Below are positions 25,301 through 31,300 of a stretch of 64,000 nt of DNA, piece after piece. The DNA lies in assembly GCF_058153355.1 (NCBI RefSeq), contig NZ_CM177019.1; one strand, written 5' to 3'. The first letter of the stretch is position 1. The number at the start of each line of letters is the position of its first letter. Made by a program: the position numbers.

Positions 25301-28300
25301 CTCGAATCCTACATTTATGCACGCAGTGCCACCATTGAAGACGACAAAACGTGGATCCTGCATGGTGTGAATCATAAAAAATGGCTGAATGGCAAAGAAA
25401 CGCTGGAAACATCTGATAATCTTGCCTGGCAATCGGCCTTCACCAGTATGAATCTTGAAGAGTTATCGATGCCGGGAAATACTTTTTCTGGCCGTCAACT
25501 TAATCATTACATCCATTATTTGCAGGAAACCGGACAACCCAGCAACGAATACCGCCTTGCACTGTGGGAAAAACTGGGACAACCCATCTTGACCCTGGCG
25601 ATGATTTTGCTGGCTGTGCCGTTTACCTTTAGTGCCCCGCGTTCGCCTGGGATGGGTAGCCGTCTCGCTGTAGGCGTCATCGTGGGCTTACTCACCTGGA
25701 TCAGCTATCAAATTATGGTCAATCTGGGATTGCTATTTGCGTTGAGCGCACCTGTTACCGCGCTCGGTTTACCGATAGCGTTTATGCTGGTGGCGTTGAG
25801 CCTGGTGTATTGGTATGACAGTCAACATTAAACCCGCCGTGGCGCAGTACCACAGCGGGCTCACATTACTGCTTCAGAGTAGCAAATGCCTGAATGATGG
25901 CATCGATTTGCTCACGAGTGTGGGCAGCGTTTACGCTACAGCGCAGCAGTGTGATGCCTGCAGGCGCGGCAGGTGGCAGGATAAGATTCACATAAACGCC
26001 CAGCGAAATAAGCTCGCGCCAGATGCGTAAACCTTCCTCTTTCGAACCGATTATTACTGGCACTACCGGGCTAATATGTGAACTTAACTCGTAACCCAGT
26101 TTTTGCAGACCGTCATACAGATGGTTGGCGTTATCCATCAGCTTTTGCCGCAACTCTGGTTGTGAGGCAATAGTTCTTAACGACGAGCGCACGGTCGCAA
26201 TGCAGGACGGAGAAGGAGAGGCGGTAAAAATATACGGGCGGCTGCCGTAGCGCAGCACTTCCATCGCTTCCGAACCGACAGCAAAACCGCCAATCGAGGC
26301 CAGACTTTTACTGAAAGTACCAACGATAATATCCACATCATCTTCAACGCCAACGGCTTCAGCCAGTCCGCGCCCCGTTGCGCCTAACACGCCAAACGAA
26401 TGCGCTTCATCGACAATCAAATAACCACCGAGACGACGTTTGATATCAACAATTTCCGCCAGCGGCGCAACGTCACCGAGCATACTGTAGATGCCTTCAA
26501 CGATGATAATCGCCTCTTTTGCCCGTTCACCGAGGCGAACCATGCGCCGTTCCAGATCTTTAGCATCGTTATGGCGGAAACGAATAATTTCCGCTCCACC
26601 GAGAGAACAGGCGTCATAAATACTGGCGTGGCTGTCGGCATCCAGTAACACTACGGCGTTATGGTCGGCAAGCGCGCTGATGACGCCTAAATTCGCGGTA
26701 TAACCGGTTGAAAAAACGATAGCGGAAGGGCGCTTGAAAAACTCGGCAATCTCTTTCTCTAACGCCAGATGCGGCGCATAACTGCCGTTTGCCATACGAG
26801 AACCGGTGGTGCCGGTGCCTTGGGCCGCTAACGCTGCCTGACCTTCGGCGATGGCATCATGATTGAAGGTTAAACCGAGATAATTATTGGTCCCGGCCAG
26901 GATCACGTTTTTATCGCCGATCCGGCCTTCGGTGGCGGAATACACTTCATCAATACAGGTACCAAACGGCGTTAACCCGTTGTCACTAAATTGCAGTCGC
27001 TCGCCAGCAAGGCGCGCATATTTATCGTATAGCCCCATTATTTATTCTCCAGCCATGGAAGTAGAGTTTCCATTAATTGCGCAGGGGTTTTGACATCCAG
27101 CAGAATATTAATAGGAATGGAAATATCGAATCTGTCTTCCAGCATCATTAAGAGATCCATCACTTTGATCGACTCCAGGCCAAGATCGTTGACGAGATCG
27201 CTGTCGGGCTTAATTTCCACACCGTTTTCGACCAAATCCTGTAAACAGGAAAGGATGTAATCCATTACTATTTCACGATTTACCATAGAAACGTTAACAC
27301 ACCTTTAAACAAGACAATCAAAATAGCCCGCTGCGTAATGCGTGTTCTAGGCTAATCCCGGGAAACCAATTAATATCTTCAGAAATACGGTTATTACTTG
27401 CTGACCAGTCGGCGTGGGTTAATTCACGGATTTTCGAGCGGGTCAGCATAGGTTCTTTACCTGCCAGGCGGCTCAACGTGGTACTGATATCCGCAAGGCA
27501 GGTGAGTACCGACAGAGGAATACCAACCATTCGAACGGAACCGCAACGGGCGTCGGCGGCAAGTTGCTGTACGCGTTGCCAGTCATAGCCGCCGGCGACG
27601 CCATCGCATAATTCATAGGTTTGCGTCTGTACAGTTTCGGCGCTTAACCACTGCCCCACGGCTTGCGCGAAATCGGTGACGTGCAGGAAAGAGAGCTGTG
27701 TATCTGGCGCACCAAGTCGTGGCAGCAGGCCGCGCAGCATCCAGTCAAACAGCGGTTTTAACTCTTTATCGCCGGGACCATACACGGCTGTCGGGCGAAA
27801 AATGCCCAGCGTAATTTCGTCAGCCATTGCGGTCAGTCGTTGTTCGGCGACGTGTTTGGAATTTGCGTACCAGGAGAGTTCGGGATGGCGCGCCGCCAGC
27901 GAAGAGATAAACAGAAAACGTTGGCAAAAGCCGCTCTCTTTTGCCGCTTGCATCAGGCGCAGGCTGCCGTCAACGTTACAGCGGGTAAAAATCTCTTCTT
28001 TGTGTCCGCGCACTTGCCCGGCGCAATGGACCACCGCGCTGGCTCCGGCAACCAGTTCCCTAAGCGAATGTGTATCTTCCAGCGAACCGCGCACCCAGAT
28101 GAGATTATCATTGACGTGAGCGCGGGCAGTACGCGTCAATGCGCGAACGTGAAAGCCGCGGACGAGCAGGTTATCGATAATATATTTACCGATAAACCCG
28201 GTAGCGCCCGTCACCGCGACAGTTTGATTCATGCCATGGATTCCTGCACATGAAGGCTTGCAGCATAACGTTTTTTCGCTTCCGCACGGGCAGGCTTGCC

Positions 28301-31300
28301 GGAGGACGTTCGGGGAATACTGTGGGGCGGCAACAGATCGATAGCCGCTGTTACGCCAAATTCGCTTTGGATCCGTGCTGCCAGTGCGTGGATAAGCTGC
28401 CCACGACGTTCTTCGTCGCTGATCCTACACTGGATCTGCAAAATGATTTTTTCCTGGGCGGTAACAAAAGCAATCGCATCGCCAGAATGAATTTCCGGTT
28501 CCTGTTCCGCAATATATTCAATATCCTGCGGCCAGATATTACGGCCACGAATAATAATCAGATCTTTAATGCGCCCGGTGACATACAGATAACCGTCCAG
28601 CAGATAACCGAGGTCGCCGGTATCTAACCAGCCCGTCGCGGCAATCTCGTCTTGCGAAACCTGGTCGCCAAAGTAACCGCTCATCAGGCTGGGGCCGGAG
28701 ATGCAAATATGGCCTACCACACGTTCCGCGACCGGCATACCTGCTTCATTGCGGATTTCAATGCCATGTTCCGGCAACGCTTTACCGCAGTTGACGAAAG
28801 TCGATACGGCGCGTGTTTCAGCACCCGGCGCGACGGCTTTGCCCTGATATTCAAGGATGTCGCGATCCACTTCGTTAACCACAACCCCGGAGGCTTCATC
28901 AGAGAAGCTGACAGCCAGCGCATTTTCTGCCAGTCCGTAGCACGGCATGAAAGTTTTATCGTCAAAGTTAACCTGACGGAAACATTCAGCGAATTGATGG
29001 AGTTGTTCTGCGGAGATCGGCTCAGCACCAATACCAGCAACGCGCCAGCAGGAAAGATCCAGTTCAGCGAGATCTTTTTCATTCACGCGGCGCTGGCACA
29101 ATTCATAGCCAAACGGCGGCGCAACGGAAACGGTGCCGCGATTTTTACTGATCAATTTAAGCCATTGCAGAGGACGCATGGCAAAATCCTGAGTGCGCAA
29201 ATAATCTACTGAGAGCTGCGTGGCGACGGGGGTCAGGAGAAAGCCGACCAGTCCCATATCATGGTAGAAAGGCAGCCAGGAGACGCAGCGGTCGCCAGGG
29301 CGTAATTTAATGCCATCGTGGCTTATAGCACGTAGATTAGCCATCACTTCGCGATGGGTGATAATGACGCCACGGGGAAAACGGGTGCTGCCGGAGGTGT
29401 ACTGGAGGTAGGCGATATCGTTCGGAACTGGACGCTGGAGTACAACATCGGCTTCCGGTAATGCCTTAAACCAGGCGTGGCTTAAAACATGTAATTCGGG
29501 GTTGTTATGCGTAGCAGCATTGACCAGTGGCAACCACTCATCACCAGTGATAATGGCTGTGGGCTGGCAACTTGCCAGTAAACCCTGCAGTTTGGCGCTC
29601 CAGGAATCCCGCTGACCGACGCCCATTGGAATTGCCAACGGGACGGCGACTAAGCCGGCATACTGGCAGGCAAAAAAAGCCTCTACAAACCCGCTACTCG
29701 TTTCGGCAATCAACGCCACGCGATCGCCTTTTTTCAGATTCAGTGATAACAACCGCTTCGCACCAGCTTCGGCACGCGCTTTTAACGTCTGATATTCGAG
29801 TTGATCTTCAAGTTGGCAACGTCTGTCATAAAAATTCATTCCGGCGCTACTCAGAGCGGCGTAGTCCAAAGCATCAACCAGCGTTGGAAAATCGGCATAG
29901 CGCATAGGTAGGGAATGCGTAAAGATTTTATTAGACATATACACCACGAAAAAAAATTGGATATCAGAAATAAAATGACAATAATGCGGTGGATTATATA
30001 GGCATAAAAGATAAATGAGATAGTATTTTCATCGGTGCGATATTGAACATTGATTTAAATAATAGGTTTGGCTTTGTTGTTTTTATTGTGAATGATATTT
30101 AATTTATGAATATATTAAGAAGAAGCCTTGTTTGGTTGCCTTAAATCGACAAAAGGCATTGAGGCGCTTCTGTGTAGTCTCTGACCTTATCTTAATTATT
30201 AATAAATACTATTTATTCTTTGTTTGTATTCATTGGGTTGATTATTAAGATGCCGTTCGTTGCTGTTGCAATCTGTTTGTCACCGTTAATTATTTGTTAT
30301 CCACAGAGATATGGAATGCGATCTGCTGATGATTAAAATTGAAAAAGTAATTAATAAAAATGACCTTAAGGCATTTATCGCTTTTCCGTCATCACTTTAT
30401 CCCGATGATCCAAACTGGATACCCCCTTTGTTCATTGAACGCAGCGAGCATTTGTCGGCGAAGAATCCGGGGACGGACCATATTATCTGGCAGGCGTGGG
30501 TAGCAAAAAAAGCGGGGCAGATAGTCGGGCGGATTACCGCGCAAATCGATACCTTGCACCGCGAGCGTTACGGTGACGATACCGGTCATTTTGGCATGAT
30601 TGACGCCATTGATGATCCGCAGGTTTTTGCCGCTTTGTTTGGCGCAGCGGAAGCATGGTTGAAGTTACAAGGTGCCAGTATGATCAGCGGGCCTTTCAGC
30701 CTGAATATCAATCAGGAAAGCGGATTACTGATTGAAGGTTTCGACACTCCGCCCTGTGCGATGATGCCGCACGGTAAACCGTGGTATGCCGCGCATATTG
30801 AACAATTGGGTTATCACAAAGGTATTGATTTACTGGCGTGGTGGATGCAACGAACCGATCTCACTTTCTCTCCGGCGCTAAAAAAACTGATGGATCAGGT
30901 ACGCAAAAAGGTGACCATTCGTTGCATCAATCGTCAGCGGTTTGCTGAAGAGATGCAGATCCTGCGTGAGATTTTCAACTCTGGCTGGCAGCACAACTGG
31001 GGATTTGTGCCGTTTACCGAACATGAATTCGCTACCATGGGCGATCAACTAAAGTATCTGGTACCGGACGATATGATCTACATCGCTGAGATTGGTTCTG
31101 CACCCTGCGCGTTTATTGTCGGCTTGCCGAACATAAACGAGGCGATTGCCGATCTGAACGGATCGCTCTTTCCCTTCGGCTGGGCAAAATTGCTGTGGCG
31201 CTTAAAAGTCAGCGGTGTGCGAACTGCGCGAGTGCCGCTGATGGGCGTGCGTGACGAGTATCAGTTCAGCCGCATCGGCCCGGTGATTGCGCTGTTATTG

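What the first reader, a model, noticed from the sequence alone, without database searches (positions are those of the whole stretch)
25866..29947. Four-gene operon resembling a bacterial sphingoid-base/ceramide synthesis module
On the minus strand, tightly coupled: an adenylate-forming acyl ligase (AMP-binding motifs), an SDR epimerase/dehydratase-family reductase, an acyl carrier protein and an alpha-oxoamine synthase whose PLP motif 'GTFSKS' is the serine-palmitoyltransferase-type signature. This combination matches the gene set reported for ceramide synthesis in Caulobacter and some other bacteria. In E. coli it would be an unexpected accessory lipid pathway; K-12, as recalled, lacks it.
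Basis: inference. Interest (0 to 1): 0.8.

Follow-up and report, generated by a model that had tools for sequence, protein, structure and literature searches.

The report
E. coli ceramide (sphingolipid) synthesis operon
The four genes are real and do encode the first steps of bacterial sphingolipid (ceramide) synthesis, but this E. coli operon is already annotated in RefSeq and was tested biochemically in strain BL21(DE3) in 2022, so it is a correct but known finding.

Summary
Observation confirmed. On the minus strand lie aasR (fatty acyl-AMP ligase, 28229-29947), cerR-like SDR (27318-28232), acpR (27038-27286) and spt (25866-27038). They are translationally coupled (ATGA and TAATG overlaps).

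Spt passes NCBI's curated serine palmitoyltransferase model (600 bits, cut-off 500) and fails the BioF, KBL, ALAS and CqsA models. It keeps the catalytic residues of the Sphingomonas enzyme.

The four proteins are 96-100% identical to E. coli BL21(DE3) ECD_02851-02854. Padilla-Gómez et al. 2022 showed that those proteins form a working AasR/AcpR/Spt system that makes 3-oxo-sphinganine. RefSeq already labels the gene spt.

The operon is not a rarity: 4067 of 5426 complete E. coli genomes carry it. K-12 lost it through an IS5-associated deletion.

The divergent yghO is the ceramide synthase homologue. The four genes sit in a 13-gene island (yghT/S/R, MOP flippase, CHAD-fold protein, YtfJ-like protein, LptF2/LptG2) that stays together across Enterobacterales.

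Still unknown: whether E. coli makes a sphingolipid natively, under what conditions, and with what head group.

The parts
25866..27038 (-). spt: PLP-dependent serine palmitoyltransferase (alpha-oxoamine synthase)
   Evidence: NF047599 scores 600 bits against a cut-off of 500; the bioF, KBL, ALAS and CqsA models all score below their cut-offs. It gives 378 bits to S. paucimobilis SPT 2JG2, with His159, Asp231, His234, Lys265 and Arg390 conserved. It is 97.9% identical to BL21 ECD_02854, which was assayed with L-[14C]serine.
27038..27286 (-). acpR: specialised acyl carrier protein
   Evidence: PF00550 and weak hits to ACP models. It is 100% identical to BL21 ECD_02853, which was shown to carry 4'-phosphopantetheine. 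Its stop overlaps the spt start.
27318..28232 (-). cerR/epi homologue: extended SDR, predicted 3-keto reductase of the ceramide pathway
   Evidence: PF01370/3Beta_HSD. GATGFIG and YANSK motifs are in the sequence. The closest solved relatives are NDUFA9-type SDRs. Its BL21 orthologue ECD_02852 is 34% identical to CC_1164, E 7e-38, and the window protein is 95.7% identical to ECD_02852.
28229..29947 (-). aasR: fatty acyl-AMP ligase-type acyl-AcpR synthetase (start codon 29947, 29938 or 29917)
   Evidence: NF006624 scores 873 bits against a cut-off of 600. It is 97.5% identical to BL21 ECD_02851, which supports 3-oxo-sphinganine formation only together with the cognate AcpR.
29948..30310 (.). 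AT-rich divergent intergenic region between aasR and yghO; presumed promoters
   Evidence: Sequence; GC is about 0.42. There are no more consensus sigma-70 matches than in shuffled sequence. The role in regulation is inferred only.
30311..31453 (+). yghO: homologue of bacterial ceramide synthase bCerS/Aca (CC_1154)
   Evidence: It is 98.7% identical to BL21 ECD_02850, which is 44% identical to CC_1154 over 98% of its length, E 1e-107. It is 41% identical to the homologue in a Caulobacteraceae MAG locus. It has no Pfam or NCBIfam model.
24752..25831 (+). lptG2: LptG paralogue, candidate sphingolipid exporter permease
   Evidence: TIGR04408 scores 306 bits. It is only 28% identical to canonical K-12 LptG. 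It is syntenic with spt across genera. The role of the Caulobacter LptF2/G2 is shown in a 2026 preprint.
23685..24755 (+). lptF2: LptF paralogue
   Evidence: TIGR04407 scores 320 bits. It is 29% identical to canonical K-12 LptF. Synteny with spt is shown.
23091..23654 (+). YtfJ-family protein with a hydrophobic N-terminus (probably exported)
   Evidence: TIGR01626 scores 209 bits; PF09695. It is conserved in the island in Enterobacterales.
22258..23082 (+). 274-aa all-helical protein with a CHAD-like fold
20909..22258 (+). MOP-family flippase (full-length yghQ), counterpart of Caulobacter CC_1166
   Evidence: PF01943 Polysacc_synt. It is 33% identical to the flippase next to aasR in a Caulobacteraceae MAG. 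CC_1166 is described.
20105..20863 (+). yghR: P-loop, thymidylate-kinase-fold protein
   Evidence: Its dTMP-kinase model score is 31 bits against a cut-off of 83. Model pLDDT is 82, and Foldseek matches TMK at TM 0.54/0.66 and 16% identity. Conserved motifs are GxDGxGK[ST]T, DRxPQ and RKPDH.
19361..20074 (+). yghS: paralogue of yghR
   Evidence: Alignment A1; synteny.
18495..19187 (-). yghT: paralogue of yghR and yghS
   Evidence: Alignment A1; synteny.

Best explanation
The operon encodes the committed steps of bacterial ceramide synthesis.

**Proposed pathway.**
1. AasR adenylates a free long-chain fatty acid and loads it onto the 4'-phosphopantetheine arm of the dedicated carrier protein AcpR.
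2. Spt, a PLP enzyme, condenses L-serine with acyl-AcpR, releasing CO2, to give 3-oxo-sphinganine.
3. YghO (bCerS homologue), encoded divergently upstream, N-acylates the long-chain base.
4. The SDR (CerR homologue) reduces the C3 keto group to give dihydroceramide. The order of steps 3 and 4 is disputed in the literature.
5. The adjacent MOP flippase and LptF2/LptG2 paralogues most likely move the lipid to the outer membrane, using the cell's single LptB ATPase.

**What is shown and what is inferred.** Steps 1-2 were shown experimentally for the 96-100% identical BL21(DE3) proteins. Steps 3-4 rest on homology and synteny. Export is inferred by analogy with Caulobacter.
For: **Family scores.** Spt scores 600 bits against the curated Spt model (cut-off 500) and falls below the BioF, KBL, ALAS and CqsA cut-offs. 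The ligase scores 873 bits as a fatty acyl-AMP ligase.

**PDB comparison.** Spt gives 378 bits to SPT, against 204 (KBL), 177 (BioF) and 125 (CqsA). The catalytic residues are conserved.

**Identity to the tested proteins.** Window proteins against BL21(DE3): AcpR 100%, Spt 97.9%, AasR 97.5%, CerR 95.7%, YghO 98.7%.

**Published experiments on the BL21 proteins (PMC9386255).**
- AcpR_Ec is labelled with beta-[3H]alanine.
- Co-expressing AasR_Ec, AcpR_Ec and SPT_Ec gives a 3-oxo-sphinganine-like lipid.
- SPT_Ec extract incorporates L-[14C]serine and prefers palmitoyl-AcpR over palmitoyl-CoA.

**Published homology to the Caulobacter genes required for ceramide.** YghO 44%, Spt 53%, CerR 34%, AasR 42%.

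**Synteny.** The gene set is syntenic in more than 25 species.

**Selection.** dN/dS is 0.02-0.19 for all 13 genes, window against BL21.

**Export.** Caulobacter LptF2/G2 are required for sphingolipid export and bind LptB.
Against: - No native sphingolipid has been reported from E. coli in the papers I could search.
- BL21(DE3) with empty vectors, or over-expressing SPT_Ec alone, showed no new lipid. The chromosomal operon is therefore not detectably active in laboratory culture.
- The operon has been lost repeatedly through IS-associated deletions (IS5 in the K-12 lineage, 353 genomes; IS1 in strain CUPF09). It is dispensable.
- CerR and YghO activities are untested in E. coli.
- The E. coli CerR homologue shows no obvious signal peptide, whereas Caulobacter CerR is reported to be periplasmic.
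Confidence: 0.85

Rival explanations
1. The aminotransferase is a BioF/KBL/CqsA-type alpha-oxoamine synthase. It would make a different amino-ketone, such as a biotin precursor, aminoacetone or an alpha-hydroxyketone signal, rather than a sphingoid base.
For: All alpha-oxoamine synthases share the fold and the PLP lysine. The protein gives significant but sub-threshold hits to bioF (336 bits), KBL (299) and the CqsA-type model (224). Older database names call it 8-amino-7-oxononanoate synthase.
Against: Only the Spt model is passed (600 against a cut-off of 500). PDB scores favour SPT by about 170 bits or more. The 97.9% identical BL21 enzyme makes a 3-oxo-sphinganine-like product from labelled serine. 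The genomic partners are the ceramide set.
Confidence: 0.02
2. The island is intact but effectively cryptic in E. coli. It would be a horizontally acquired, silenced cluster that contributes no lipid in any natural condition and is slowly being lost.
For: No product was seen in BL21 laboratory cultures. The upstream region is AT-rich with no good consensus promoter. There have been independent IS5 and IS1 deletions, and about 25% of complete genomes lack the operon.
Against: All 13 genes are intact, with dN/dS of 0.02-0.19 between two diverged strains. The island is kept in 75% of E. coli genomes and as a unit in many Enterobacterales genera despite rearrangements. This argues for selection on function.
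Confidence: 0.1
3. The pathway stops at, or mainly delivers, a free long-chain base or a non-ceramide N-acyl amino lipid. That product would act as a signal or host-directed molecule rather than as an outer-membrane structural ceramide.
For: Only 3-oxo-sphinganine formation has been shown for the E. coli proteins. YghO and the SDR are untested. E. coli already has a complete LPS outer leaflet.
Against: YghO is a full-length homologue (44% identity) of the Caulobacter ceramide synthase. LptF2/G2 and a flippase are conserved in the island, which suggests bulk export of a two-tailed lipid. Sphinganine-like and ceramide-like spots appeared in BL21 when 3-oxo-sphinganine was made.
Confidence: 0.08

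Closest known systems
E. coli BL21(DE3) ECD_02851-02854 plus yghO (ECD_02850): the AasR/CerR(Epi)/AcpR/Spt/Aca system (Padilla-Gómez et al. 2022, PMC9386255)
   Same: It is the same locus, with the same gene order and the same flanks (glcC on one side, pitB on the other). The proteins are 95.7-100% identical.
   Different: This is a strain-level allele only. The window matches most E. coli at about 97% nucleotide identity and 47 genomes at 99% or more.
Caulobacter crescentus sphingolipid locus CC_1152-CC_1168 (aasR CC_1165, cerR CC_1164, acpR CC_1163, spt CC_1162, bcerS CC_1154, lptF2/G2 CC_1156/1155, flippase CC_1166)
   Same: The core order aasR-cerR-acpR-spt is identical. Homologues of bCerS, LptF2, LptG2 and the MOP flippase lie in the same neighbourhood.
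   Different: E. coli has no CpgA/B/C (ceramide kinase and phosphoglycerate head-group genes), no LptC2 and no nucleotidyltransferases CC_1152/1153. Instead it has three thymidylate-kinase-fold paralogues (YghR/S/T), a CHAD-fold protein and a YtfJ-family protein. The head group is therefore probably different, or absent.
Sphingomonas paucimobilis / S. wittichii serine palmitoyltransferase (PDB 2JG2, 2X8U)
   Same: The match runs over the whole length (378 and 370 bits). The PLP lysine, His159, Asp231, His234 and Arg390 are conserved.
   Different: Arg378 of the S. paucimobilis enzyme is Leu here. It is Leu or Met in all ACP-linked relatives examined, including a Caulobacteraceae sequence. The E. 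coli enzyme prefers acyl-AcpR to acyl-CoA.
BioF / KBL / ALAS / CqsA alpha-oxoamine synthases
   Same: They share the fold type and the PLP chemistry.
   Different: Scores fall below every curated cut-off for these families, and the gene context differs.

Membership tests
Bacterial serine palmitoyltransferase (NCBIfam NF047599, Spt of the ACP-dependent proteobacterial type) | The whole-protein score exceeds the curated Spt cut-off and falls below the cut-offs of sister alpha-oxoamine synthase families | tested here: met
   600.2 bits against a cut-off of 500. bioF 336 against 426; KBL 299 against 460; ALAS 220 against 339; CqsA-type 224 against 428.
Bacterial serine palmitoyltransferase (NCBIfam NF047599, Spt of the ACP-dependent proteobacterial type) | The PLP-binding lysine in the GTFSKS motif, and the catalytic His, Asp, His and carboxylate-binding Arg (S. 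paucimobilis H159, D231, H234, K265, R390) | tested here: met
   All are aligned and identical in the phmmer alignment to 2JG2. R378 is not conserved, but it is also absent from the other ACP-type Spts.
Bacterial serine palmitoyltransferase (NCBIfam NF047599, Spt of the ACP-dependent proteobacterial type) | It catalyses L-serine + acyl-thioester -> 3-oxo-sphinganine + CO2 | not testable with these tools
   Published for the 97.9% identical BL21 enzyme, by TLC of L-[14C]serine products.
AcpR (specialised ACP for sphingolipid synthesis) | A small PP-binding protein with the conserved serine, encoded immediately upstream of spt and co-transcribed with it | tested here: met
   PF00550; the LGLESI serine motif; its stop overlaps the spt start.
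AcpR (specialised ACP for sphingolipid synthesis) | It carries 4'-phosphopantetheine and is acylated by its cognate AasR | not testable with these tools
   Published for the 100% identical BL21 protein.
AasR (acyl-AcpR synthetase, fatty acyl-AMP ligase subfamily) | An adenylate-forming domain of the FAAL subfamily, encoded in the spt neighbourhood | tested here: met
   NF006624 scores 873 bits against a cut-off of 600. It is the first gene of the operon. Its BL21 orthologue (97.5% identical) is 42% identical to CC_1165.
CerR (bacterial ceramide reductase) | An extended SDR with an NAD(P)-binding GxxGxxG and a catalytic YxxxK, NDUFA9-like, homologous to CC_1164 and located between aasR and acpR | tested here: met
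   GATGFIG and YANSK are in the sequence. The top PDB relatives include NDUFA9 subunits. Its BL21 orthologue (95.7% identical) is 34% identical to CC_1164, E 7e-38. The position is identical to Caulobacter.
CerR (bacterial ceramide reductase) | It reduces 3-oxo-(dihydro)ceramide or 3-oxo-sphinganine; it is periplasmic in Caulobacter | not tested
   No assay exists for the E. coli protein. No obvious N-terminal signal peptide is seen (the sequence starts MNQTVAVTGATG).
bCerS / Aca (bacterial ceramide synthase) | Full-length homology to CC_1154 | tested here: met
   41% identity over residues 8-380 to the homologue in a Caulobacteraceae locus. The published value for the BL21 orthologue (98.7% identical) is 44% identity over 98% coverage, E 1e-107. 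No Pfam or NCBIfam model exists to test against.
bCerS / Aca (bacterial ceramide synthase) | N-acylation of the long-chain base | not testable with these tools
   There is only a hint: ceramide-like spots appeared in BL21 when 3-oxo-sphinganine was supplied in vivo.
LptF2/LptG2 sphingolipid exporter | A pair of LptF/LptG-family permeases, distinct from the housekeeping pair, encoded in the sphingolipid locus with no LptB of their own | tested here: met
   PF03739 twice. They are 28-29% identical to K-12 LptF and LptG. They are syntenic with spt in Enterobacterales and Pseudomonas. There is no ATPase gene in the island.
LptF2/LptG2 sphingolipid exporter | It binds LptB and is required for sphingolipid export | not testable with these tools
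   Shown only for Caulobacter.
BioF / KBL (rival filing) | The score reaches the curated equivalog cut-off | tested here: not met
   every score is below its cut-off.
dTMP kinase (RefSeq name for YghS and YghT) | The score reaches the TIGR00041 cut-off (83 bits) | tested here: not met
   25-31 bits. Only the fold is shared: TM 0.54/0.66 at 16% identity.

The most novel reading that the evidence does not exclude
The four genes would be the core of a 13-gene enterobacterial island that builds and exports a sphingolipid with a head group unlike the Caulobacter one.

- The three thymidylate-kinase-fold paralogues YghR/S/T and the CHAD-fold (polyphosphate-binding-type) protein would supply new phosphoryl head-group chemistry.
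- The MOP flippase, LptF2/LptG2 (with LptB) and the YtfJ-like periplasmic protein would deliver the lipid to the outer membrane.
- Most wild E. coli would then be conditional sphingolipid producers, for example in the gut or under envelope stress. This trait would be invisible in K-12.
Probability: 0.25. Interest if true: 0.7.

Novelty: already known. Interest (0 to 1): 0.3.

Why it matters
E. coli is the textbook organism for a membrane made of three glycerophospholipids. Yet three quarters of sequenced complete genomes carry a selected, intact ceramide pathway that K-12 lost. The enzymology of the first steps is published, so the finding adds no new biology by itself.

It does mark an open and testable gap: no one has reported the native lipid, its head group, its regulation or its role in commensal or pathogenic E. 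coli. Bacterial sphingolipids from gut Bacteroides modulate host immunity and lipid metabolism, so a conditional E. coli sphingolipid would be of medical interest.

The conserved accessory genes (YghR/S/T, the CHAD-fold protein, the YtfJ-like protein) are concrete candidates for the unknown steps.

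Tried and rejected
1. **YghR/S/T as the E. coli counterpart of ceramide kinase CpgB: rejected as homology.** CpgB is an LCB5/DAG-kinase-family enzyme. YghR/S/T have a thymidylate-kinase fold.
2. **YghR/S/T as true dTMP kinases (the RefSeq name): rejected.** They score 25-31 bits against a cut-off of 83.
3. **Pfam, NCBIfam and PDB sequence searches for YghO and the 274-aa protein.** These found nothing. Only fold comparison gave a result for the 274-aa protein.
4. **Promoter and terminator scan of 25700-30400.** It found no more sites than in shuffled sequence, so it says nothing about regulation.
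5. **Loss of S. paucimobilis Arg378 as a possible change of substrate: rejected.** The position is Leu or Met throughout the ACP-type clade, and the BL21 enzyme uses serine.
6. **Are remote YghRST homologues always next to spt? They are not.** Two distant fused-domain homologues lie in glycosyltransferase/flippase loci with no spt within 10 kb. The link to sphingolipids therefore rests on synteny in Enterobacterales and some Pseudomonas only.
7. **Stankeviciute et al. 2022 (Nat Chem Biol)** could not be read. I cite it only through papers that quote it.
8. **Literature searches for a native E. coli sphingolipid, or for functions of yghQ/R/S/T.** Nothing relevant was found.

Full report
**1. 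Observation**

- a 572-aa adenylate-forming enzyme, 28229-29947;
- a 304-aa SDR, 27318-28232;
- an 82-aa carrier protein, 27038-27286;
- a 390-aa aminotransferase, 25866-27038.

The junctions were read directly. The ligase stop overlaps the SDR start (ATGA). The SDR and ACP are 31 nt apart. The ACP stop overlaps the spt start (TAATG). The motif GTFSKS is present.

The ligase start is ambiguous: GTG 29947, ATG 29938 (PGAP, strain EC42405) or ATG 29917 (BL21 annotation). None has a clear ribosome-binding site.

**2. What the four proteins are**

*Spt.* Against NCBI's curated family models, the aminotransferase scores 600 bits on the serine palmitoyltransferase equivalog NF047599 (cut-off 500). 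It fails the cut-offs of bioF (336 against 426), KBL (299 against 460), ALAS and the CqsA-type synthase. Against solved structures it gives:
- 378 and 370 bits to the Sphingomonas paucimobilis and S. wittichii SPTs;
- 265 bits to the Sphingobacterium SPT;
- 204 and 189 bits to KBL, 177 to E. coli BioF and 125 to CqsA.

His159, Asp231, His234, Lys265 and Arg390 are conserved. Arg378 is Leu. That position is Leu or Met in every ACP-linked relative I aligned, including a Caulobacteraceae sequence, so it is not diagnostic.

*The other three.*
- The ligase is a fatty acyl-AMP ligase (NF006624, 873 bits).
- The small protein has a PP-binding domain.
- The SDR has GATGFIG and YANSK motifs. Its closest solved relatives include NDUFA9-type subunits. 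This matches the published description of Caulobacter CerR as NDUFA9-like.

**3. It is already known**

A megablast against all complete RefSeq E. coli genomes finds the four genes, at 80% coverage or more, in 4067 of 5426 genomes. They are already annotated 'fatty acyl-AMP ligase | NAD-dependent epimerase/dehydratase | acyl carrier protein | spt: serine palmitoyltransferase'.

The locus in BL21(DE3) has the same order and flanks. Its proteins compare with the window proteins as follows:

| Protein | Identity to BL21(DE3) |
|---|---|
| AcpR | 100% |
| YghO | 98.7% |
| Spt | 97.9% |
| AasR | 97.5% |
| CerR | 95.7% |

Padilla-Gómez et al. 2022 (PMC9386255) studied exactly these BL21 genes: ECD_02851 aasR, ECD_02852 epi, ECD_02853 acpR, ECD_02854 spt and yghO/ECD_02850 aca. 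They reported:
- AcpR_Ec carries 4'-phosphopantetheine.
- AasR_Ec works with its own AcpR but not with the Caulobacter one.
- SPT_Ec extracts incorporate L-[14C]serine and prefer palmitoyl-AcpR to palmitoyl-CoA.

Their supplementary table gives identities of the BL21 proteins to the Caulobacter genes genetically required for ceramide: Spt 53%, AasR 42%, bCerS/YghO 44% (98% coverage) and CerR 34%.

**4.

(a) The pathway is not rare in E. coli. About 75% of complete genomes have it.

(b) K-12 lacks it because of a deletion. MG1655 has yghO, then IS5 (insH9), then a truncated yghQ. That junction occurs in 353 genomes. Another strain, CUPF09, lost the same region through IS1 between yghS and yghO.

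(c) The functional unit is larger than four genes.
- The divergent yghO (30311-31453) is the ceramide synthase homologue.
- Convergent with spt lie LptG and LptF paralogues. They are only 28-29% identical to the housekeeping LptF/G.
- Beyond them lie a YtfJ-family protein, a 274-aa protein, a full-length MOP flippase (yghQ) and three paralogous P-loop proteins (yghR, yghS, yghT).

**5. The 13-gene island**

I scanned one genome per species for Spt relatives and ran tblastn with the 13 window proteins. All 13 genes stay together in Citrobacter, Pseudocitrobacter, Hafnia, Serratia, Sodalis, Pluralibacter, Mangrovibacter, Rosenbergiella and Pantoea. This holds even where order and orientation are rearranged and the glcC/pitB flanks are absent.

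A Caulobacteraceae MAG shows flippase-aasR-cerR-acpR-spt, with a YghO homologue nearby. This is the Caulobacter CC_1166-CC_1162/CC_1154 arrangement described in PMC11324152.

All 13 genes show dN/dS of 0.02-0.19 between the window strain and BL21, so they are under purifying selection.

A 2026 preprint (10.64898/2026.04.12.717747) shows that Caulobacter LptF2/LptG2 are needed for sphingolipid export and bind the single LptB. It notes lptF2/G2 in many alpha- and gammaproteobacterial sphingolipid loci. The E. coli island likewise has no LptB of its own.

**6. Accessory genes (side findings, partly followed up)**

*YghR/S/T.* They share the motifs GxDGxGK[ST]T, DRxPQ and RKPDH. A model of YghR (pLDDT 82) has a thymidylate-kinase-like fold at 16% identity. 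The proteins score only 25-31 bits on the dTMP-kinase model (cut-off 83). The RefSeq name 'dTMP kinase' is therefore an over-annotation.

*What E. coli lacks.* The island has none of the Caulobacter head-group genes: CpgA/B/C and CC_1152/1153.

*Pseudomonas.* In Pseudomonas sp. LS-2 the spt locus carries a DAG-kinase-family lipid kinase, lptG2/F2, bcerS, aasR-cerR-acpR-spt, an MsbA-like ABC exporter, two YghRST-like genes and a CptA-like phosphoethanolamine transferase.

*Reading.* Together this suggests, but does not show, that YghR/S/T act in head-group or phosphoryl chemistry.

*Caveat.* Two remote fused-domain homologues lie next to a MOP flippase and/or glycosyltransferases, with no spt within 10 kb. 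The family may therefore serve glycolipid or polysaccharide pathways more generally.

**7. What is not known**

- In the published experiments, BL21 with empty vectors, or with SPT_Ec alone, made no detectable new lipid. The chromosomal operon is evidently not active in laboratory culture.
- The 363-bp aasR-yghO intergenic region is AT-rich (GC about 0.42). It has no more consensus promoter matches than shuffled sequence. Silencing of this region is an inference only.
- I found no report of a native E. coli sphingolipid.
- The order of N-acylation and reduction is disputed between the two groups working on Caulobacter.
- The E. coli CerR homologue has no visible signal peptide, although Caulobacter CerR is reported to be periplasmic.

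**8. Verdict**

- Novelty: already known, both annotated and biochemically characterised.
- Interest is low to moderate (0.3). What remains of interest is the open question of the native product, together with the conserved accessory genes.

Noticed in passing
window 18495-31453: The four genes sit in a 13-gene island (yghT, yghS, yghR, MOP flippase, CHAD-fold protein, YtfJ-like protein, lptF2, lptG2, spt, acpR, cerR, aasR, yghO). The island stays together across at least nine Enterobacterales genera despite rearrangements and different flanks. dN/dS is 0.02-0.19 for every gene.
   Followed up: partly
window 18495-19187 (-), 19361-20074 (+), 20105-20863 (+): YghT, YghS and YghR are three paralogues with a thymidylate-kinase-like fold and the conserved motifs GxDGxGK[ST]T, DRxPQ and RKPDH. 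RefSeq calls two of them 'dTMP kinase', although they score 25-31 bits against a cut-off of 83. K-12 keeps them although it lost the spt core.
   Followed up: partly
[not shown]
   Followed up: partly
window 23685-25831 (+): RefSeq names these two genes lptF and lptG, 'LPS export ABC transporter permease'. They are only 28-29% identical to the housekeeping LptF and LptG of K-12. They are paralogues, most likely sphingolipid-specific as in Caulobacter.
   Followed up: yes
L002 (K-12 MG1655 3129043-3132408); L061 (strain CUPF09): The operon has been lost independently. In K-12 an IS5 lies between yghO and a truncated yghQ, and 353 of 5426 genomes share that junction. In CUPF09 an IS1 lies between a truncated yghS and yghO.
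   Followed up: partly
L032 (Pseudomonas sp. LS-2) 510-16480: The Pseudomonas spt locus combines a DAG-kinase-family lipid kinase, lptG2/F2, bcerS, aasR-cerR-acpR-spt, an MsbA-like ABC exporter, two YghRST-like genes and a CptA-like phosphoethanolamine transferase. This hints at a phosphoethanolamine-type head group there.
   Followed up: partly
L013 and L025 (Serratia sp. M24T3): This genome has two spt copies. One lies in the full island. The second locus shows only acpR-spt (79% and 69% identity), without the other island genes within 10 kb.
   Followed up: no
L064 (Oecophyllibacter saccharovorans), L065 (metagenome contig): Remote YghRST homologues occur as fused double-domain proteins of about 435 aa. 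They lie next to glycosyltransferases and, in L065, directly upstream of a Polysacc_synt flippase. No spt lies within 10 kb. The P-loop and MOP-flippase pairing may be a more general module.
   Followed up: partly
window 29948-30310: A 363-bp AT-rich (GC about 0.42) divergent intergenic region lies between aasR and yghO. It has no good consensus promoter. This would fit silencing of the operon in laboratory culture, but that was not tested.
   Followed up: no
P0047; L060: These are probable database artefacts. P0047 is a 443-aa ACP-Spt 'fusion', 97% identical to the E. coli protein and filed under a eukaryotic source. L060 is a 273-bp contig, 97% identical to E. coli spt, in an Alkalicoccobacillus assembly. 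Both look like E. coli contamination.
   Followed up: no
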